DNA of 31,873 bases, from positions 1-31,873 of IMG/VR virus record IMGVR_UViG_3300045988_079015. One strand, given 5' to 3'. The DNA comes from a virus. Position 1 is the stretch's first letter; each line of letters starts with the position of its first letter. Made by a program: the position numbers and the translations under genes. Positions 1-31,873 of this stretch are shown piece by piece. The notes under the pieces were generated by a model. That model was not told the DNA's origin. It worked only from the letters and a program-made list of their open reading frames with translations, and ran no database searches.

Positions 1-49
1 TAGCCCTCTCACGGCTGAATCAGGGGTTCGACTCCCCTAGGCGATACCA
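1..49 (+). tRNA. 3' portion (anticodon arm to CCA) of tRNA-Glu(CUC); the 5' part lies off-window
   Basis: The anticodon stem is tagcc/ggctg with the 7-nt loop cTCTCAc (U33, anticodon CTC, A37). A 4-nt variable loop follows. The T arm is agggg-TTCGACT-cccct, followed by the acceptor 3' strand aggcgat, discriminator A and CCA. The segment closely resembles the E. coli tRNA-Glu 3' half as I remember it. Confidence 0.6.
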
Positions 50-55
50 ATTATA
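1..55 (+). repeat. attL core, a 55-bp direct repeat identical to 31819..31873
   Basis: By direct comparison, tagccctctcacggctgaatcaggggttcgactcccctaggcgataccaattata occurs at both ends. Confidence 0.9.
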
Positions 56-100
56 AAAAGCCTTGAAAATACTGTATTTATCAGTGTTTCAAGGCTTTTT
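56..100 (+). terminator. Rho-independent terminator directly after the tRNA end, on the phage-side arm
   Basis: The stem aaaagccttgaaa (56-68) pairs with tttcaaggctttt (87-99). An inner actg/cagt pairing extends it, and a T-run follows. Confidence 0.6.
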
Positions 101-133
101 CATTGCCTTATATATGTTCGCATTTTGTCTGAG

Positions 134-163
134 AATCGTTCCCAATCGTTCCCAATCGTTCCC
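134..163. repeat. Three perfect tandem copies of the 10-mer aatcgttccc; candidate arm-type recombinase/Xis binding sites
   Basis: aatcgttccc occurs at 134-143, 144-153 and 154-163, spaced at helical-repeat intervals about 80 bp from the att core. The core CGTTCCC resembles the CGTTACCC motif nearby and at the attR arm. Confidence 0.5.
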
Positions 164-171
164 AAAAGTGG

Positions 172-191
172 GTTACCCTATGCGTTACCCT
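172..191. promoter_or_regulatory. Two direct GTTACCCT copies; candidate integrase arm-type sites
   Basis: gttaccct occurs at 172-179 and 184-191. The 11-mer gttaccctatg (172-182) recurs at 31767-31777 next to attR. Confidence 0.4.
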
Positions 192-202
192 TTTTAAATT
201 AT

Positions 203-233
203 ATAAAAAAAAGAGGTTTTTACTCCTCTTTTT
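203..233 (-). terminator. Rho-independent (bidirectional-looking) terminator ending the cargo cassette
   Basis: The stem aagagg (211-216) pairs with cctctt (225-230). An A-run and a T-run flank it, and it lies just downstream of the stop codon at 245. Confidence 0.6.
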
Positions 234-244
234 CTAAAAAAAAA

Positions 245-652
245 TTATTTTTTTTCAAAATCTGCATTCACTTTAAATTCGAGTAGATTCAAAACGTATT
301 CCGGTGGTAGTCTATGCCCCAATTCCCAACTTTTTATCGTACTTATTGGTATTTCATAAGCTTCTGCAAATTCTTCTTGCGTGTACCCTGTCATTTCGCG
401 GATCTTTTTCATTTTGTGTTTTCCATGCTCTTGGACTTCTACCCCGCCAAATATAGTGTTATATATATCTGCATCTAAATACGATTTAAACCATTGCTTT
501 GCTTCTTCCTGTGTCTGCGGTTCGATTCCCGCACTTTCTGTTGCTTTGAAATATTCACCCGTTTTCTTTTTGAACATATACACCCCCGCATGGCTTCCCA
601 TCATGTGGGCGGTGTCTGTATCATATACTTTGCCTTTTATAATCTTTCTCAT
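245..652 (-). CDS. Two-domain protein with an unknown N-terminal domain and a C-terminal XRE/MqsA-like HTH
   Basis: 135-aa ORF with an ATG start and a GAAGAGGG RBS-like sequence upstream. The C-terminus IREMTGYTQEEFAEAYEIPISTIKSWELGHRLPPEYVLNLL is a typical XRE-type HTH with the W-E-x-G-x-R-x-P signature seen in antitoxin-type regulators. Confidence 0.6.
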   Translation of the reverse strand: MRKIIKGKVYDTDTAHMMGSHAGVYMFKKKTGEYFKATESAGIEPQTQEEAKQWFKSYLDADIYNTIFGGVEVQEHGKHKMKKIREMTGYTQEEFAEAYEIPISTIKSWELGHRLPPEYVLNLLEFKVNADFEKK

Positions 653-673
653 TTTTATTACCCTCTTCAGCTT

Positions 674-1159
674 CTAAAATTCTACTTCATTATATTCATA
701 ACTACCGATTCCATCAAAGACAACTGATGAATCATCAATATCAGTTCTTATGGCAACTCCCTCTTTGCCTTTAATTTTTGTTTGCATGCTTCTAGCCTCT
801 TCAATTGCTTTTTCTTTATCATTTGTTGACAATATTAGCCATTCTTCTGCAAAGCCGTTGTTTTCCGCATCTGATAAATGCCATACTTCATATTTCTTGT
901 GAATGCCGGGAACAATTCCACTAAATTCCTCTGCAAGTTCCATGCAGATTTTATTCCAATCGCTGTGTACATCCCCATCCCAATTGTCCGGCTTGCCGTC
1001 TGCTGTGCTGTAATCGTCTACTTCTATGCATTCAGCATCATTGCCGCTAGTGAATTGATGTGCCCCACGCATTTCATTATAACTGTATTTGTAATCTTCT
1101 AATGCTGCTAGTTTTACCATCTTTTCAAAATCTTCATATACATATTTCTCGTTTATCAT
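674..1159 (-). CDS. Strongly acidic hypothetical protein (161 aa)
   Basis: I placed the start at ATG 1159 (MINEKYVYEDF), which has an AGGAGA RBS 8-10 nt upstream. The longer track ORF (to 1246) lacks an RBS. The protein has a large excess of D/E over K/R. I recognise no family. Confidence 0.6.
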   Translation of the reverse strand: MINEKYVYEDFEKMVKLAALEDYKYSYNEMRGAHQFTSGNDAECIEVDDYSTADGKPDNWDGDVHSDWNKICMELAEEFSGIVPGIHKKYEVWHLSDAENNGFAEEWLILSTNDKEKAIEEARSMQTKIKGKEGVAIRTDIDDSSVVFDGIGSYEYNEVEF

Positions 1160-1200
1160 AGTGTGTTCTCCTTTCATATCGCTATTGTTATATCTACCTT

Positions 1201-1326
1201 TTATTTTACAATTAAGTAAACAATGCATCCAATCAATATTCCCCATACGATACCACCAATAATTTTTTCTTTTGTGGTTGTTTTTCTTATTGCTACTGCA
1301 ATTTTAATTTTTTTCTTGTCTTTCAT
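1201..1326 (-). CDS. Possible 41-aa small membrane peptide (below the ORF-track cutoff)
   Basis: Hand translation gives MKDKKKIKIAVAIRKTTTKEKIIGGIVWGILIGCIVYLIVK, a basic N-terminus followed by one 19-residue hydrophobic helix. No clear SD sequence is present, so the call is tentative. Confidence 0.3.
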   Translation of the reverse strand: MKDKKKIKIAVAIRKTTTKEKIIGGIVWGILIGCIVYLIVK

Positions 1327-1345
1327 ATTTTATTATGGTATGATT

Positions 1346-1374
1346 TCCATAGAGGAGCTTACGCTCTCTCTATG
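1346..1374 (-). other. Strong RNA hairpin (12 bp with one bulge, GUAA tetraloop on the minus transcript) overlapping the stop of the 29-aa ORF
   Basis: The minus strand reads ccatagagagagc-gtaa-gctcctctatgg. No T-run follows, so it is not a classical terminator. Confidence 0.5.
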
Positions 1375-1448
1375 GTGATTTGGAAGGTGAAGATGATGAA
1401 ATTTAACTTTATTGTTAGTTTCTTTATCTTCATTTTTTTCTTTTTCAT
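1359..1448 (-). CDS. Possible 29-aa Lys-rich leader or small peptide
   Basis: Hand translation gives MKKKKMKIKKLTIKLNFIIFTFQITIERA. The ATG at 1448 is preceded by AAAGGAGGT at ideal spacing and by a consensus promoter. Confidence 0.4.
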   Translation of the reverse strand: MKKKKMKIKKLTIKLNFIIFTFQITIERA

Positions 1449-1470
1449 ACCTTACCTCCTTTCTATATTT

Positions 1471-1499
1471 ATTATAGTTTGCATTGTGTACTTTGTCAA
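1471..1499 (-). promoter_or_regulatory. Consensus sigma-A promoter driving the cargo cassette
   Basis: On the minus strand, TTGACA (1499-1494) is followed by a 17-nt spacer and TATAAT (1476-1471). It lies immediately downstream of the endolysin terminator. Confidence 0.65.
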
Positions 1500-1530: not shown

Positions 1531-1562
1531 CAATAAAAATAAGGGGGCAATGTCGCCCCCTT
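1531..1562 (-). terminator. Rho-independent terminator after the endolysin gene
   Basis: The GC-rich stem aagggggc (1541-1548) pairs with gccccctt (1555-1562). ATTTTTAT follows on the minus strand. Confidence 0.7.
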
Positions 1563-1567
1563 AGTCC

Positions 1568-3010
1568 TTAATTGAATATATCTGCTAATGTTTCATCCGT
1601 GATATTCCCTATCGCATACGCGGTTTTGATTCCATTCTTCTTGATATAGCTTTTTGCGGCTTCATTTGTTCGCTCGCTTAATAGCAGAATTGGGTATTCT
1701 CCAATATTACTTGCTGCGATTGCATCAGCCCACGCATTAACTAAAATTACGGCTTCCGCATTTGGATATAAGCATTCAGCAAGCATTGCTGATGTTTCGT
1801 ATCTGTCCCCGCCATCAATCCTTGTTACTTGGCTGATGTCTGCAATCTGCTTGCTTACTATCTGCGATACAGCACTTGTGCCACCTATGATGATGTATTC
1901 CGTATCGTCTGATAGTTTCTCTAAAAATGCTGCTTGCTTTACTGATATATAATCACTTACAAGCATTACAGGAAGCCCCGCTGTTGTAGTTGAGATTCCG
2001 TCTGCCCAATCTTTGCCACTTGTAATTATTATTTTCTTTATGTCCTTGCTGCATTCCTTCAGTATAGCTAGATTCGTATCATATCTATTTGCGCCACTTA
2101 TGGATCTAATGCCGGTTCCTTTCACTTTTATATCTCCGCCTATGGTGTATGTATCTAGCCCGTTTATTTCCTTGCATTTATCAAAAACAATATTCGCTTT
2201 TTTAATCTTTGCAAGATAGCAAGCTGAGATTCCATCTGCATATGATTCCCCATGTACTACAACTTTATTTGCTTTGATATGATCATCAACTATTAAATCT
2301 GCTGTTTTGTACCTGTCTGCGCCATTGTACCTTTTGATTGTTATATCGTCCGGGATAGTTTGTTTACTAATCTTAGTAGTCGCTCCCTCTTTCTGTGCGT
2401 ATGCGTACCATGTCACAGCATCGCCAAAAAATACATTAAGATCCAAATTGCCATTCCATCCCGCAAGCCTTCCTTGCGAGCAATACTGATACATTGCGAT
2501 AAAAGGGAAGCTATGGGAATTTGGTACAGGTGTATTGGGTTCATAGCCCTTTGGGGTATTGCTCCCGTATCTTGCAAGCCACAAACCATAGTTTCCATTT
2601 GCTACTAAACTAAAATCTTGAGATTCTAGCACGCCCAAATATGTATAAAATAAAGGTCTAACCCCTGTTAGTCTATATACCTCATCGAGCCATTCGCGCG
2701 CCCATTCTTGCCCTAGCCATGTATCTGTTTCAAAGTCAAGTACAGGGATTGTTGTGCCGTCAAAATAAGCGCCACAATTTGCAACAAACCATCTAGCCTC
2801 TTCAGTGCCTGTGCCACCGCAGCCCGCTTCACGCGCAAAGTGATATACCCCTGTTAGCTTGCCTAATGCCTTTGCTTGCTGCATAAAGCCATCGCAAGTA
2901 GGTGATACATAGCTTGTGCCGCCTGTGCCTTTGATGATTACAAAGTCACAAGGTACTTTTGATAGATCTAACCCTTCTTGCCATCCCGATATATCTATGC
3001 CATTTAACAT
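1568..3010 (-). CDS. Endolysin: GH25 muramidase plus three CWB2 cell-wall-binding repeats
   Basis: I placed the start at ATG 3010 (MLNGIDISGWQ), which has a GGAGGG RBS. The GH25 signatures DISGWQ and GVYHFAR are present. The C-terminal repeats contain GADRYKTA, GANRYDTN and GGDRYETS, typical of cell wall binding repeat 2. Confidence 0.85.
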   Translation of the reverse strand: MLNGIDISGWQEGLDLSKVPCDFVIIKGTGGTSYVSPTCDGFMQQAKALGKLTGVYHFAREAGCGGTGTEEARWFVANCGAYFDGTTIPVLDFETDTWLGQEWAREWLDEVYRLTGVRPLFYTYLGVLESQDFSLVANGNYGLWLARYGSNTPKGYEPNTPVPNSHSFPFIAMYQYCSQGRLAGWNGNLDLNVFFGDAVTWYAYAQKEGATTKISKQTIPDDITIKRYNGADRYKTADLIVDDHIKANKVVVHGESYADGISACYLAKIKKANIVFDKCKEINGLDTYTIGGDIKVKGTGIRSISGANRYDTNLAILKECSKDIKKIIITSGKDWADGISTTTAGLPVMLVSDYISVKQAAFLEKLSDDTEYIIIGGTSAVSQIVSKQIADISQVTRIDGGDRYETSAMLAECLYPNAEAVILVNAWADAIAASNIGEYPILLLSERTNEAAKSYIKKNGIKTAYAIGNITDETLADIFN

Positions 3011-3285: not shown

Positions 3286-3615
3286 CTAATTTAATAAATG
3301 CTGTATAACTATTGTTCCTACCGAACCAACAAATAAAGTTATAATCGCTTGTATCGTTGCATTCCATCGCAGCTTTGGTATGTCCTCTAGTGCTGTTAAT
3401 CGTTCCCCTTGATTCTTGAGTTCTGTTTGAAAATTTTCTAAATGAACTACCATTGTTGCGATATTCTTGCCCATTTCCTGTATCGCTTCGTGAGTTTTTT
3501 CTAAATATTCAACGCGCCTATTTAAATCAATCACTGCTTGCGTATTCGCGTTGAGCTGCACTATGTCCTTTTCGCGTGTTTGATAGCACTGCGCCTTTGA
3601 TACGTACTCTTCCAT
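3286..3615 (-). CDS. xhlA: XhlA-like haemolysin/lysis accessory protein (coiled coil plus C-terminal TM)
   Basis: 109 aa with a coiled-coil body and the C-terminal helix TIQAIITLFVGSVGTIVIQHLL. Its position immediately before the holin and endolysin matches PBSX-type lysis cassettes. Confidence 0.6.
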   Translation of the reverse strand: MEEYVSKAQCYQTREKDIVQLNANTQAVIDLNRRVEYLEKTHEAIQEMGKNIATMVVHLENFQTELKNQGERLTALEDIPKLRWNATIQAIITLFVGSVGTIVIQHLLN

Positions 3616-3618
3616 CCT

Positions 3619-3903
3619 TTACCCCTTCTGTTTTAGTTCTCTTAATCGCATTATTTCATTAAGCTTGCTGCGGGCAAATTCGCAAGCTTTCAATAAATCT
3701 TCGTCTTTATCGTCTAGCTTGTCATCGTATAGTGTTTGGGTGCATAAAATGCGCATCACTTCAGTTGTTGTGATGTCTAAAAATCTTTGATAGTAAAACT
3801 CGGCTTCCGCTTCTTTTGTTATGCCGAAAGCTTTTGCATGCTCACGTATTGTTAGCCCGTCTAGTTTTTCTTTTATTACATCTGCTGCCTTCATCATTTC
3901 CAT
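3619..3903 (-). CDS. Hypothetical phage protein (94 aa)
   Basis: The ORF fills the gap between the fibre gene and the lysis cassette, and its start overlaps the stop of the upstream gene. Confidence 0.5.
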   Translation of the reverse strand: MEMMKAADVIKEKLDGLTIREHAKAFGITKEAEAEFYYQRFLDITTTEVMRILCTQTLYDDKLDDKDEDLLKACEFARSKLNEIMRLRELKQKG

Positions 3904-29382: not shown

Positions 29383-29411
29383 TGCAAAAACGCAATGTGT
29401 AATATATAATG
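29383..29411 (+). promoter_or_regulatory. Repressor (cI) promoter with an overlapping operator-like site
   Basis: TTGCAA (29383-29388) is followed by a 17-nt spacer and TATAAT (29406-29411). The 14-mer 29383-29396 is the reverse complement of ttgcgtttttgcaa. Confidence 0.6.
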
Positions 29412-29909: not shown

Positions 29910-30710
29910 ATGATTCCATTTATTGTAGGTTTTTTAATTTCATTATATGCACTTAAGATTTTTTTAAAGCAAAGAAATATTGTTCAACAAGAAAAAATTA
30001 ACGAGGAGAATAGAAAACGGGCTGAAGCTTCTGCAGTTGCTCAAAAGAAATATATTGAATCAAAAAAAGAATCTTTTAATAGTATTATTGATTCTTTGGT
30101 TAAACATGATGTTGTGCTTGATGATTCAACTGTCTTGTATCGCCAACAATTACGCGATATGCATGAATTAAAATTTAAAAACATTACACGTTCTTTTAAT
30201 CCGGATACGTTGCCCGCTTTTATTGTTCTTGATGTTGAAACGACCGGCTTAAGTGCTACACGCGATAGAATCATTGAAGTTTCAGCGATTTTGTTTGAAG
30301 ATTTTACCCCGGTTTCTTATTTTTCAACATTGGTTAACCCAAAACGAACAATTCCGGGTGAAGCTTCAATAATAAATAATATCTATGATTCTGATGTTGA
30401 ATTTGCTCCATCTTTAGAACAAATATCTAATTCACTTTTGGGGTTTATTGGCAATTGTCCTGTTGTTGGTTTTAACCTTGCTTTTGATTTAAAATTTTTA
30501 TATTGTGCCGGGATTGATCTATTCTCCAAACGCAAATGTTATGATGCTTGTTTAATTGCAAAAAAAGCTTATGCAAATTATCTTTGTTCATTTTCGCTTG
30601 TTGATGTTGCTGCCTATAATGATATATATTTTGATGCTCATAATTCTTTAAATGATTGTCTTGCAACAGGCTTTGTTTTTGAAAAAGCTATAAATGAGAT
30701 AATATCTTGA
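29910..30710 (+). CDS. Membrane-anchored DEDDh (DnaQ-like) 3'-5' exonuclease
   Basis: 266 aa. The N-terminal hydrophobic helix is IPFIVGFLISLYALKIF. All three exonuclease motifs are intact: Exo I LDVETTGL, Exo II GFNLAFDLKFL, Exo III HNSLNDC. Confidence 0.7.
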   Translation: MIPFIVGFLISLYALKIFLKQRNIVQQEKINEENRKRAEASAVAQKKYIESKKESFNSIIDSLVKHDVVLDDSTVLYRQQLRDMHELKFKNITRSFNPDTLPAFIVLDVETTGLSATRDRIIEVSAILFEDFTPVSYFSTLVNPKRTIPGEASIINNIYDSDVEFAPSLEQISNSLLGFIGNCPVVGFNLAFDLKFLYCAGIDLFSKRKCYDACLIAKKAYANYLCSFSLVDVAAYNDIYFDAHNSLNDCLATGFVFEKAINEIIS

Positions 30711-31818: not shown

Positions 31819-31873
31819 TAGCCCTCTCACGGCTGAATCAGGGGTTCGACTCCCCTAGGCGATACCAATTATA
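31819..31873 (+). repeat. attR core, a 55-bp direct repeat identical to 1..55
   Basis: Exact match by direct comparison. The sequence upstream (31790-31818) contains no acceptor or D-arm sequence, so this copy is a 3' tRNA fragment only. Confidence 0.9.

What the first reader, a model, noticed from the sequence alone, without database searches (positions are those of the whole stretch)
245..1499. Autonomous cargo cassette next to attL: consensus promoter, small peptide ORFs, very acidic protein and an HTH-fusion protein
Downstream of the endolysin terminator (1531-1562) there is a perfect sigma-A promoter on the minus strand: TTGACA, 17 nt, TATAAT (1499-1471). The unit ends at its own terminator (203-233). 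It therefore looks like a separate transcription unit (a moron) that could be expressed from the repressed prophage.

The unit encodes four products in order. First is a 29-aa Lys-rich peptide with an ideal AAAGGAGGT RBS. Its stop codon sits in the loop of a 12-bp GUAA-tetraloop hairpin (1346-1374). Second is a possible 41-aa single-TM peptide (1201-1326, no clear SD). Third is a 161-aa strongly acidic protein (674-1159). Fourth is a 135-aa protein that fuses an unknown N-terminal domain to an antitoxin-style XRE HTH (245-652).

I recognise none of the first three products. The region between the lysis genes and att is a known hotspot for prophage-carried defence, toxin-antitoxin and lysogenic-conversion genes. 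A leader peptide followed by a hairpin also suggests translation-coupled regulation. The acidic protein could instead be a DNA-mimic anti-restriction factor.
Basis: partly seen in the sequence, partly recalled or inferred. Interest (0 to 1): 0.62.

Follow-up and report, generated by a model that had tools for sequence, protein, structure and literature searches.

The report
Portable HTH-anchored phage accessory gene cassette
Between the lysis genes and the integration site of an oral-bacterium phage sits a self-contained, self-repressed gene cassette carrying swappable small acidic proteins of unknown function, most likely counter-defence cargo; the same cassette design also occurs in an unrelated phage group.

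Summary
A perfect TTGACA-17-TATAAT promoter lies at 1499-1471, the only one in the window (0.01 expected by chance).

Comparing about 35 related loci shows what the unit is. The promoter and the terminal HTH gene are always present. Everything between them is swapped, lost or gained.

A second, unrelated phage lineage has the same design next to its small terminase gene. It has a homologous promoter, a homologous N-domain+HTH anchor and shared cargo families, including the N-terminal domain of the 161-aa protein as a free-standing 82-aa gene.

In that lineage two promoter-spacer palindromes (CACAATGTG or CACCGAATCGGTG) track two variants of the HTH recognition helix exactly (5/5 and 3/3). The window has the first pair. 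The HTH protein is therefore very probably the cassette's autorepressor.

The 41-aa membrane peptide is under purifying selection. The hairpin shows two compensatory pair changes.

What the cargo does is unproven. An anti-defence operon of the acr-aca type is my best reading (0.42), probably anti-restriction. A lysogenic-conversion or exclusion moron and a toxin-antitoxin pair are the rivals.

The parts
1540..1563 (-). Intrinsic terminator of the endolysin gene; insulates the cassette from late transcription
   Evidence: 10-bp stem, 6 GC pairs, T-run. Conserved in L007, L010, L011, L001 and L005.
1471..1499 (-). Sigma-A-type promoter TTGACA-17-TATAAT, preceded by an A/T-rich UP-like tract (about 1500-1535)
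   Evidence: unique in the window, 0.01 expected by chance. Homologous promoter in 12 other cassettes of two phage lineages.
1480..1490 (-). Candidate operator TACACAATGCA in the -35/-10 spacer (family consensus CACA-W-TGT[G/A])
   Evidence: Conserved in all window-type cassettes. The same motif, CACAATGTG, occurs in lineage-2 'flavour A' promoters. Operator flavour covaries with the HTH recognition helix. This is the only exact copy in the window.
1359..1448 (-). 29-aa Lys-rich leader ORF (RBS AAAGGAGGT at 1454-1462) containing an A5-G-A7 tract
   Evidence: Nearly invariant at the DNA level (pS 0.13 against 0.415 in the next ORF). The A-tract is A6, A7 or A8 in different contigs; it is frameshifted in L071 and in the remnants.
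1347..1375 (-). Conserved RNA hairpin (12-13 bp, GUAA loop) holding the stop codon of the leader ORF
   Evidence: 99% of cells paired. Two pairs switch C-G to U-A on both sides, and G-U variants occur. Versions slid by 1-3 columns pair only 15-66%; the leader RNA fold has z = -6.0, with an outer helix GGUAUGA/UCAUACC that closes over the leader start codon. No Rfam family matches.
1201..1326 (-). 41-aa single-pass membrane peptide (basic N-terminus, C-terminal TM IGGIVWGILIGCIVYLI); no SD, probably translationally coupled to the leader
   Evidence: pN/pS = 0.24 at pS 0.415. Kyte-Doolittle hydropathy (KD) 2.45 over 17 aa. Homologues occur only in these phages and in [Eubacterium] sulci remnants. 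The lipobox-like Cys is not conserved (Gly in L010), so it is not a lipoprotein.
899..1159 (-). 161-aa acidic protein, N-terminal module (residues 1-87; alpha-beta-beta-beta-alpha)
   Evidence: AF2 pLDDT is about 85 for residues 10-50 and 70-80. The family consists of free-standing 62-82-aa proteins, all with pI 4.0-4.9. It is fused after a RadC/JAB domain in P0031 and in a Siphoviridae 'MPN domain' protein. It is an 82-aa gene immediately upstream of the anchor in 6 of 8 lineage-2 phages (E about 1e-29).
674..898 (-). 161-aa acidic protein, C-terminal module (residues 88-161, 'KYEVW...EEWLIL...IRT')
   Evidence: A free-standing 65-aa paralogue lies in L001, L089 and L090. The module is absent from P0031/P0032 and from lineage-2 versions. 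The AF2 model is poor and no other homologues were found.
437..652 (-). 135-aa anchor protein, N-terminal beta-rich domain (MRKIIKGKVYDTDTA...KKTGEYF...EEAKxW)
   Evidence: AF2 pLDDT 85-89, six strands plus a helix. It belongs to a large uncharacterised family, with 59 loci in bacterial genomes and 286 in viral contigs. Members are stand-alone (about 100 aa), or fused to RHH or to HTH. No conserved neighbour was found.
248..421 (-). 135-aa anchor protein, C-terminal XRE-type HTH (MqsA/NadS-like); inferred autorepressor
   Evidence: Pfam HTH_3; NadS and MqsA-family NCBIfam similarity. Foldseek neighbours are Aca7, C.Esp1396I and the HigA2 C-terminal domain. The same HTH exists as a 63-64-aa protein on its own in sister phages. 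The recognition helix covaries with the operator.
206..235 (-). Intrinsic terminator ending the cassette
   Evidence: Conserved in L115 and L114 and, as an analogous hairpin, in L001.
1..190 (.). att region: 55-bp core (1-55, the tRNA 3' half, repeated at 31819-31873), a phage-borne tRNA terminator hairpin, and arm-type repeats (GGGTAAC x2, TTGGGAACGA x3 at about 134-190)
   Evidence: Comparison of L001 with L002 shows that sister phages carry the tRNA 3' half plus its terminator in attP.

Best explanation
The region 206-1563 is a portable accessory operon built like an anti-CRISPR/anti-defence (acr-aca) locus.

A near-ideal promoter drives one or more small effector genes. In this window these are a leader ORF with a hairpin, a 41-aa membrane peptide, and a two-module, strongly acidic 161-aa protein.

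The last gene encodes an XRE-HTH protein. It binds a short palindrome in the -35/-10 spacer of that same promoter and shuts it down. Transcription would therefore burst when naked phage DNA enters a cell and settle to a low level afterwards, including in the lysogen.

Shown by comparison:
- The unit is autonomous.
- Only the promoter and the HTH anchor are constant.
- The cargo is shuffled between phages.
- Operator sequence and HTH recognition helix change together.

Inferred:
- The acidic cargo proteins act by binding or mimicking a host factor, most plausibly a restriction or other defence complex. The host reference genome has type I-like methyltransferases but no Cas1.
- The 41-aa peptide is made at a low level by coupling to the leader ORF.
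For: (1) Autonomy. The promoter is perfect and unique, terminators lie on both sides, and all of these are conserved in relatives.

(2) Anchor plus variable cargo. The gene upstream of the same or a homologous HTH differs between loci:
- 161-aa acidic: window, L071, L082, L083, L085.
- 154-aa acidic: L010.
- 196-aa beta-helix: L007-9.
- nothing but the 41-aa ORF: L011, L084.
- 152/167-aa acidic: L001, L005, L072, L089, L090.
- 182-aa acidic: L073.

(3) Independent recurrence. An unrelated phage lineage (L125-L132) has a homologous promoter, an N-domain+HTH anchor, and cargo that includes the 82-aa acidic module (E about 1e-29, 6 of 8 loci). It also carries a 240-aa acidic protein 48% identical to the L073 cargo, plus J-domain and DUF3560 proteins.

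(4) Autorepression. The spacer palindrome CACAATGTG goes with RTLQSWE[MI]G[ED]R (5/5). CACCGA[AG]TCGGTG goes with RTLQNWELGV[SN] (3/3), in proteins that are otherwise very similar across the alignment. In 7 of the 8 lineage-2 loci a second related site lies downstream; in L131 it is degenerate (CACTGAAAAGGTG). The window has the first pair: S-W-E-L-G-H-R with TACACAATGCA.

(5) Fit to acr-aca. Aca repressors are 60-70-aa HTH_3 proteins at the 3' end of the operon, with an inverted repeat inside the core promoter. Their nearest solved structures are HigA2-C and C-proteins (PMC9410906), the same neighbours found here, together with Aca7 itself. Listeria AcrIIA1-NTD represses its acr promoter through a conserved promoter palindrome (bioRxiv 10.1101/787200).

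(6) Cargo character. Every member of the acidic-module family has pI 4.0-4.9. The module is fused to RadC/JAB, a domain of the polyvalent conflict proteins of mobile elements (PMC5512222). It is nearly absent from 401 Peptostreptococcales genomes, so it is a phage gene rather than a host gene.

(7) Host. The [Eubacterium] sulci reference genome has two full-length N6_Mtase hits (ORFs of 854 and 498 aa) and no Cas1.
Against: - No cargo protein matches any known anti-defence, defence, toxin or structural family. No anti-defence HMM library was available.
- The AF2 model of the acidic protein is only partly confident (mean pLDDT 58.5), and Foldseek found nothing significant.
- Autorepression through a promoter palindrome is also typical of type II antitoxins and R-M C-proteins, so point (4) does not by itself favour anti-defence.
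- A membrane peptide and a structured leader are not usual parts of acr operons.
- In window-type promoters the palindrome is short and imperfect (ACA-N3-TG[T/C]) in A/T-rich DNA.
Confidence: 0.42

Rival explanations
1. It is a lysogenic-conversion or exclusion moron. The cassette is expressed from the prophage for the benefit of the lysogen. For example, the 41-aa membrane peptide blocks DNA entry of superinfecting phages, or the acidic proteins act as immunity or defence factors. The HTH protein merely sets the expression level.
For: - It has its own promoter and terminators next to att, a classic moron position.
- The 41-aa TM peptide is under purifying selection and, together with the anchor, is retained in chromosomal remnants of [Eubacterium] sulci.
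- A HicAB pair, a typical stabilisation or abortive-infection cargo, occupies the same slot in those remnants.
- Streptococcus prophages carry a distant anchor homologue in their post-lysin region.
Against: - The 41-aa ORF is missing from many cassettes (L007-9, all short-type and all lineage-2 loci), so it cannot be the core function.
- No PADLOC defence model matches anything except the generic HTH.
- In lineage 2 the cassette sits beside terS rather than in the lysogeny module.
- The remnants have lost the promoter and often carry frameshifts in the leader and the HTH gene, so there is no sign of host-level selection to keep them working.
Confidence: 0.22
2. It is a toxin-antitoxin module. 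The HTH protein is an MqsA/HicB-like antitoxin. Its N-domain neutralises an upstream toxin: either the acidic HicA-fold-like module or the 41-aa membrane peptide, the latter with mok/hok-like leader coupling.
For: - The HTH is of the MqsA/NadS type.
- Whole-chain Foldseek hits include MqsA, NE0471 and HicB3 (E 0.1-0.5).
- The N-domain family is fused to either HTH or RHH, as HicB is.
- The acidic module is predicted alpha-beta-beta-beta-alpha, like HicA, with weak hits to HicA structures (rank 15; rank 17).
- The acidic module is the commonest immediate neighbour of the anchor.
- The leader ORF, the hairpin and the 5'-3' closing helix recall the translational control of small membrane toxins.
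Against: - The partner is not fixed. The same anchor follows at least 7 unrelated genes, or none.
- The 63-64-aa anchors lack the N-domain altogether yet still pair with the acidic protein.
- The N-domain family has no conserved neighbour across 59 genomic loci.
- The acidic module is strongly acidic, and its one His is replaced in 4 of 11 members, which does not fit an RNase.
- No Pfam HicA hit was found. hhalign against a HicA gave 45% probability over 17 columns.
- No conserved antisense promoter lies opposite the 41-aa ORF.
Confidence: 0.12
3. It is a lysis accessory or lysis-timing unit: the small membrane peptide and its partners modulate holin or endolysin action.
For: It lies directly downstream of the holin-endolysin pair, and its products include a small membrane peptide and a Lys-rich peptide.
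Against: - A strong terminator and a separate promoter uncouple it from the lysis genes.
- It is present or absent among phages with the same lysis genes.
- The same cassette design sits next to terS in lineage 2.
- A dedicated autorepressor has no obvious role in lysis.
Confidence: 0.04

Closest known systems
acr-aca operons, especially the Listeria prophage acrIIA1 locus (phiA006/phiJ0161) and Aca6/7/9-type HTH_3 repressors
   Same: - A strong promoter with a palindrome inside the core promoter.
- One to several small, often acidic, fast-evolving and interchangeable genes.
- A small HTH repressor gene in the operon that autoregulates it.
- Two-domain regulator variants (AcrIIA1 is an HTH plus a second domain).
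- Chromosomal copies of the repressor alone also occur.
- The structural neighbours of the HTH are the same: HigA2-C, C-proteins and Aca7 (PMC9410906; 10.1101/787200).
   Different: - No cargo protein is a known Acr or anti-restriction protein.
- The host reference genome has no Cas1, so CRISPR is an unlikely target here.
- The anchor's extra domain is N-terminal and belongs to a large unannotated family.
- The operon has a translated, structured leader and a membrane peptide.
- Membership in Aca1-13 could not be tested by sequence.
Type II antitoxins with a beta-rich N-domain and a C-terminal DNA-binding domain (MqsA, HicB)
   Same: - Two-domain layout, an MqsA/NadS-type HTH, and RHH or HTH alternatives as in HicB.
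- Autorepression through promoter palindromes.
- From memory, not checked here: the recognition-helix position that switches S/N aligns with a base-contacting residue of MqsA.
   Different: - There is no fixed toxin partner.
- The N-domain has no Zn-binding cysteines and no detectable sequence similarity to MqsA-N or HicB-N. Foldseek E-values are only 0.1-0.5 at TM about 0.35.
- HTH-only versions of the anchor exist.
Phage morons (for example HK97 gp15 and other promoter-gene-terminator inserts)
   Same: - Own promoter and terminator.
- Inserted between conserved modules.
- Present or absent among close relatives.
   Different: Morons do not normally carry a dedicated repressor. They also do not move as a promoter-operator-repressor frame with exchangeable contents.
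Acidic DNA-mimic anti-restriction proteins (Ocr, ArdA) and domains of polyvalent proteins of phages and conjugative elements (PMC5512222)
   Same: - Small and very acidic (pI about 4.2, net charge -13 over 87 residues).
- Confined to mobile elements.
- The module also occurs fused to a RadC/JAB domain.
   Different: - No sequence or confident structural similarity to Ocr, ArdA or KlcA.
- The predicted fold is a small alpha-beta-beta-beta-alpha unit rather than an elongated DNA-like dimer.

Membership tests
acr-aca-type (anti-defence) operon | Small HTH gene co-transcribed at the 3' end of a short operon of small genes in a mobile element | tested here: met
acr-aca-type (anti-defence) operon | Inverted-repeat operator inside the core promoter, bound by the operon's own HTH protein | tested here: met
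   Comparative evidence only. The palindrome lies in the -35/-10 spacer, and two operator flavours covary 5/5 and 3/3 with recognition-helix variants. Binding was not measured.
acr-aca-type (anti-defence) operon | At least one upstream gene inhibits a defence system or is homologous to a known inhibitor | not testable with these tools
   Pfam, PHROGs and NCBIfam give no function. No anti-defence HMM library was on hand and no assay is possible.
acr-aca-type (anti-defence) operon | HTH belongs to a named Aca family (Aca1-13) | tested here: inconclusive
   Foldseek to Aca7 (9lx1): probability 0.99, TM 0.60 on the target, but E = 0.27. The profile search of PDB sequences did not retrieve it.
Type II toxin-antitoxin (MqsRA / HicAB-like) | Conserved cognate toxin gene adjacent to the antitoxin | tested here: not met
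   The upstream neighbour differs in at least 7 ways. The N-domain family has no recurrent neighbour.
Type II toxin-antitoxin (MqsRA / HicAB-like) | Upstream protein belongs to a toxin family (for example HicA) | tested here: inconclusive
   No Pfam HicA hit. hhalign gave 45% probability over 17 columns. Foldseek hits to HicA structures are not significant. The acidic charge and the non-invariant His argue against it.
Phage moron | Own promoter and terminator; variable presence or content among related phages | tested here: met
DNA-mimic anti-restriction proteins (Ocr/ArdA/KlcA) | Sequence or fold homology to a known mimic | tested here: not met
   No Pfam, PDB or Foldseek match. Only the acidic composition is shared.
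Type I toxin-antitoxin (small membrane toxin plus antisense RNA) | Conserved antisense RNA promoter opposite the toxin mRNA | tested here: not met
   The plus-strand promoter-like sites at 1185-1212 and 1316-1344 score 9/12, no better than shuffles. The first is not conserved in L010 or L011.
Bacterial lipoprotein (NCBI's name for the 41-aa homologue P0047) | Invariant lipobox cysteine | tested here: not met
   L-I-G-C in the window, but V-I-G-G in L010.

The most novel reading that the evidence does not exclude
The promoter-operator/HTH-anchor pair is a mobile 'plug-and-play' expression frame. It moves between unrelated Clostridia phages and carries several entirely uncharacterised effector families:
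- the 62-87-aa acidic alpha-beta-beta-beta-alpha module;
- the 182/240-aa acidic protein;
- the 'LYAKPEF'-repeat protein;
- the 113-117-aa protein;
- J-domain and DUF3560 proteins.

These would be new counter-defence proteins, probably anti-restriction rather than anti-CRISPR. The widespread 'KxYDTDTA...KKTGEYF' domain would be a new sensor or partner domain of Aca-like regulators.

The promoterless anchor copies kept in the host chromosome could then act as host-side repressors of incoming phages' cassettes, analogous to 'anti-anti-CRISPR'.
Probability: 0.3. Interest if true: 0.72.

Novelty: new variant of a known kind. Interest (0 to 1): 0.55.

Why it matters
If the reading is right, the anchor gene and its promoter give a 'guilt-by-association' handle, like aca genes, for finding counter-defence proteins in phages of oral and gut Clostridia, a group with almost no experimentally known anti-defence genes.

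It also gives a first functional context to two sizeable unannotated protein families. One is the N-domain, with 286 viral and 59 genomic loci found here. The other is the small acidic module.

The natural A/B operator-recognition-helix switch is a ready-made specificity experiment. The leader ORF, hairpin and SD-less membrane-peptide arrangement is a compact case of probable translational coupling.

Even if the cargo turns out to serve the lysogen, the modular frame itself is a clear, testable unit of phage accessory-gene exchange.

Tried and rejected
- **No DNA-level relatives in named phages**. tblastn of the 161-aa protein against 50,697 phage records found nothing.
- **No family hits for three products.** Pfam, PHROGs, PADLOC and NCBIfam gave nothing for the 29-, 41- and 161-aa products.
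- **Two long hits discarded.** P0037 (3,994 aa) and P0041 (666 aa) from the deep search look like low-complexity artefacts, with many zero-stretch Pfam hits.
- **HicA-like reading of the acidic module is inconclusive**.
- **Rfam:** no family for the leader or hairpin; only the partial tRNA was found.
- **The hairpin is not a terminator,** because no U-tract follows it. A DNA operator is also unlikely, because G-U variants keep the RNA pairing but break the DNA symmetry.
- **Neighbourhood clustering** of 59 genomic N-domain loci found no recurrent partner.
- **The acidic module is rare in cellular genomes.** A search of 401 Peptostreptococcales genomes gave only 4 marginal partial hits. A viral scan for P0036 found nothing.
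- **A9 and A2 were too divergent** for pattern-based locus searches.
- **Generic inverted-repeat search** on window-type promoters found only A/T runs.
- **Copies of the candidate operator elsewhere in the window are not enriched** (7 found against 3.2 expected). This includes a one-mismatch copy in the cI promoter spacer.
- **Lipoprotein reading of the 41-aa ORF is rejected,** because the Cys is not conserved.
Full report
**1. What is in the sequence**

On the minus strand, downstream of a GH25+CWB2 endolysin (1568-3010) and its terminator (1563-1540), lies TTGACA-17 nt-TATAAT (1499-1471). It is the only perfect match in the 31.9-kb window, where shuffles predict 0.01.

The following features come next, in order:
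- AAAGGAGGT and a 29-aa Lys-rich ORF (1448-1359).
- A hairpin at 1375-1347 whose GUAA loop contains that ORF's stop codon.
- A 41-aa ORF without an SD (1326-1201).
- A 161-aa acidic ORF (1159-674; pI 4.35).
- A 135-aa ORF (652-245) with an HTH_3 domain at residues 81-120.
- A terminator at 235-206.

The window is a complete IMG/VR phage record. Its 55-bp terminal repeats are the att core, the 3' half of a tRNA. The cassette therefore lies between the lysis genes and attP/attL, with integrase on the other side of the core.

The host is [Eubacterium] sulci (Anaerovoracaceae), an oral anaerobe. NCBI names a 41-aa homologue from strain ATCC 35585, and the flanking host genes match that genome.

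**2. The cassette is a frame with exchangeable contents**

Homologues were traced through metagenomic and viral contigs.

- *Always present:* the endolysin terminator, the promoter (TTGACA or TTGCAA, then TATAAT, TATACT or TATTAT) and a terminal HTH gene.
- *Window type:* promoter, 29-aa ORF, hairpin, 41-aa ORF, cargo, 135-aa anchor. The cargo is the 161-aa acidic protein (window, L071, L082, L083, L085), an unrelated 154-aa acidic repeat protein (L010), or nothing (L011, L084).
- *L007-L009:* the 29-aa and 41-aa ORFs are missing. A 196-aa hexapeptide-repeat protein directly follows the promoter.
- *Oral sister phages:* the anchor is only 63-64 aa, the HTH alone. The cargo is a 152/167-aa orthologue of the acidic protein, sometimes preceded by a 65-aa paralogue of its C-terminal module (L001, L005, L072, L089, L090), or a 182-aa very acidic protein (L073).

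**3. The same design in an unrelated phage lineage**

Eight IMG/VR contigs (L125-L132) carry the design next to, and divergent from, the small terminase gene. It consists of a homologous promoter with the same A/T-rich upstream tract, variable cargo, and a 122-124-aa N-domain+HTH anchor 35-38% identical to the window's.

- In six of the eight, the gene immediately before the anchor is an 82-aa protein of the same family as residues 1-87 of the window's acidic protein (hmmsearch E about 1e-29). A seventh has a 74-aa version as its first gene.
- Other cargo there includes a 240-aa acidic protein 48% identical to the L073 cargo, a J-domain protein, a DUF3560 protein and a 113-117-aa protein.
- None of the cargo has a known function.

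The frame and part of its cargo repertoire have therefore moved between phages and between genome positions.

**4. The HTH protein is the cassette's repressor**

Lineage-2 promoters come in two flavours.
- *Flavour A:* five have CACAATGTG in the -35/-10 spacer and GCACACAAAGTGC downstream.
- *Flavour B:* three have CACCGA(A/G)TCGGTG in the spacer. Two of them (L129, L132) have a second CACC-N5-GGTG site downstream, which is degenerate in L131.

The anchors are otherwise very similar across the alignment. They split the same way in the recognition helix: RTLQSWE(M/I)G(E/D)R for flavour A against RTLQNWELGV(S/N) for flavour B.

All window-type and short-type anchors have the S-W-E-x-G-x-R form. 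All their promoters have (T)ACACA(A/T)TGT(A/G) at the same place. In the window this is TACACAATGCA at 1480-1490, the only exact copy in the phage.

This protein-site covariation is the strongest functional inference available here. It is comparative evidence, not biochemical.

The HTH is of the MqsA/NadS kind. Its nearest structures are Aca7, C.Esp1396I and HigA2-C. The latter two classes are the ones reported as nearest to Aca6, Aca7 and Aca9 (PMC9410906).

**5. The individual products**

*161-aa protein.* It has two modules.
- Residues 1-87 are predicted as alpha-beta-beta-beta-alpha, with pLDDT about 85. They belong to a family of free-standing 62-82-aa proteins, all with pI 4.0-4.9.
- The same module sits at the C-terminus of a RadC/JAB fusion (P0031; BFVD 'MPN domain' protein, 88% identical).
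- The module is almost absent from 401 Peptostreptococcales genomes.
- Residues 88-161 recur only in the orthologues and as the 65-aa gene.

*135-aa protein.* Its N-domain (pLDDT 85-89; six strands and a helix) belongs to a large unannotated family. That family occurs alone (about 100 aa, ending FGEVEE), with a C-terminal RHH, or with an HTH. No neighbour is conserved.

*41-aa ORF.* This is a real gene. pN/pS is 0.24 at pS 0.415, and the TM segment is invariant.

*29-aa ORF.* It is far more conserved at synonymous sites (pS 0.13). It carries an A-tract whose length varies (A6, A7 or A8), and it is frameshifted in L071.

*Hairpin.* It keeps 99% pairing. Two pairs are exchanged C-G to U-A on both sides, and G-U variants also occur.

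*Leader RNA.* It folds with z = -6.0. A 7-bp helix joins the leader start codon to the segment just upstream of the 41-aa ORF. I infer translational coupling that keeps the membrane peptide at a low level. This is not shown.

**6. Chromosomal remnants**

Many [Eubacterium] sulci contigs carry, next to the same tRNA, HicA-HicB followed by a promoterless leader, the 41-aa ORF and the anchor. The anchor is intact in L114-L117. It is frameshifted in L086-L088 and L092. In L086 the remnant lies in tandem with an intact prophage.

These remnants confirm the site as a cargo hotspot. They also show that the unit decays once its promoter and phage are lost.

**7. Interpretation**

*Toxin-antitoxin reading.* A fixed toxin-antitoxin pair is hard to reconcile with one anchor serving many different upstream genes, and with HTH-only anchors.

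*Defence or exclusion reading.* This remains possible, mainly for the membrane peptide. But that peptide is dispensable in most cassettes, and no defence model matches.

*Best fit.* The architecture as a whole fits acr-aca-type counter-defence operons best. Its elements are a very strong promoter, a self-repressing terminal HTH, small acidic fast-shuffling phage-only cargo, and fusion of one cargo module to RadC/JAB. The published comparisons are PMC9410906, bioRxiv 10.1101/787200 (Listeria AcrIIA1) and PMC5512222 (polyvalent proteins).

*Likely target.* The host reference genome lacks Cas1 but has two full-length N6_Mtase (type I-like) genes. Restriction is therefore a more likely target than CRISPR in this host.

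*Odds.* I put this reading at about 0.42, the lysogen-benefit moron at 0.22, toxin-antitoxin at 0.12 and lysis accessory at 0.04. The remainder is unknown.

**8. Limits**

- No anti-defence profile library was available.
- The operator in window-type promoters is short, sits in A/T-rich DNA, and rests on covariation seen mainly in the second lineage.

Noticed in passing
window 1-55 and 31819-31873: The window is a whole IMG/VR virus record. Its 55-bp direct terminal repeat equals the att core (the tRNA 3' half). Since 55 is also a common assembler k-mer, the contig probably broke at the core shared by attP, attL and attR.
   Followed up: partly
L086 2391-3900; L092 2520-3900; L109-L117: [Eubacterium] sulci chromosomes carry a decayed copy of the cassette end next to the same tRNA: HicA-HicB, a promoterless leader, the 41-aa ORF and the anchor. 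In L086 it lies in tandem with an intact prophage, and in L114 it is interrupted by a transposase. Upstream genes include Macro, vWA and ADP-ribosylglycohydrolase proteins.
   Followed up: partly
window 1425-1445 (minus strand; A5-G-A7 in the 29-aa ORF): The homopolymer length differs between contigs. It is A7 in most, A8 in L071 (leader frameshifted, ending before the hairpin) and A6 in the remnants. This could be slippage-prone regulation or assembly noise.
   Followed up: no
window 1333-1350 (minus strand): A 5-codon mini-ORF (AUG GAA AUC AUA CCA UAA) starts in the 3' arm of the hairpin and stops 6 nt before the 41-aa ORF start. It has a GUG start in L011 and is extended by one codon in L010. 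It could relay ribosomes from the leader to the SD-less ORF.
   Followed up: no
window 29391-29401 (minus strand), in the spacer of the cI-like gene promoter TTGCAA-17-TATAAT: A one-mismatch copy of the candidate operator (TACACATTGCG) lies here. Such copies are not enriched overall (7 against 3.2 expected), and it overlaps the ACGCAA-type repeats of the immunity region, so it is probably coincidence.
   Followed up: partly
window 29910-30710: This encodes a 266-aa protein with an N-terminal hydrophobic helix and an RNase_T/DEDDh exonuclease domain (E=4e-15), between the cI-like repressor and integrase. The same 266-aa RNase_T gene sits in that position in sister phage L007.
   Followed up: partly
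L125-L132 (IMG/VR contigs), cassette next to terS: J-domain (HPD motif) and DUF3560 proteins travel as a pair in four of the eight lineage-2 cassettes. A 113-117-aa protein ('SGVYGWNADVY...GYRPFG') occurs in four others. None has a known function.
   Followed up: partly
L106 (Streptococcus phage Javan273) 974-1291; L107 (Javan242) 3474-3788: Distant homologues of the anchor (29-33% identity over residues 34-126) lie among unannotated small genes just beyond the lysin gene of streptococcal prophages. The design may therefore reach beyond Clostridia.
   Followed up: no
L010 1720-2184; P0032: The 154-aa acidic cargo of L010 ('ESWD' head plus 'GLT.EQ..LYAKPEF...QM.EIR.G' repeats) is the N-terminal part of P0032. 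The C-terminus of P0032 is the acidic module of the window's 161-aa protein. The cargo modules therefore also occur fused to each other.
   Followed up: partly
window 134-190: GGGTAAC x2 and TTGGGAACGA x3 direct repeats lie between the cassette terminator and the core. L001 has analogous GGGTGACAC x2 and GGGGGTA-type repeats at the same place. They are probably arm-type integrase or Xis sites.
   Followed up: no
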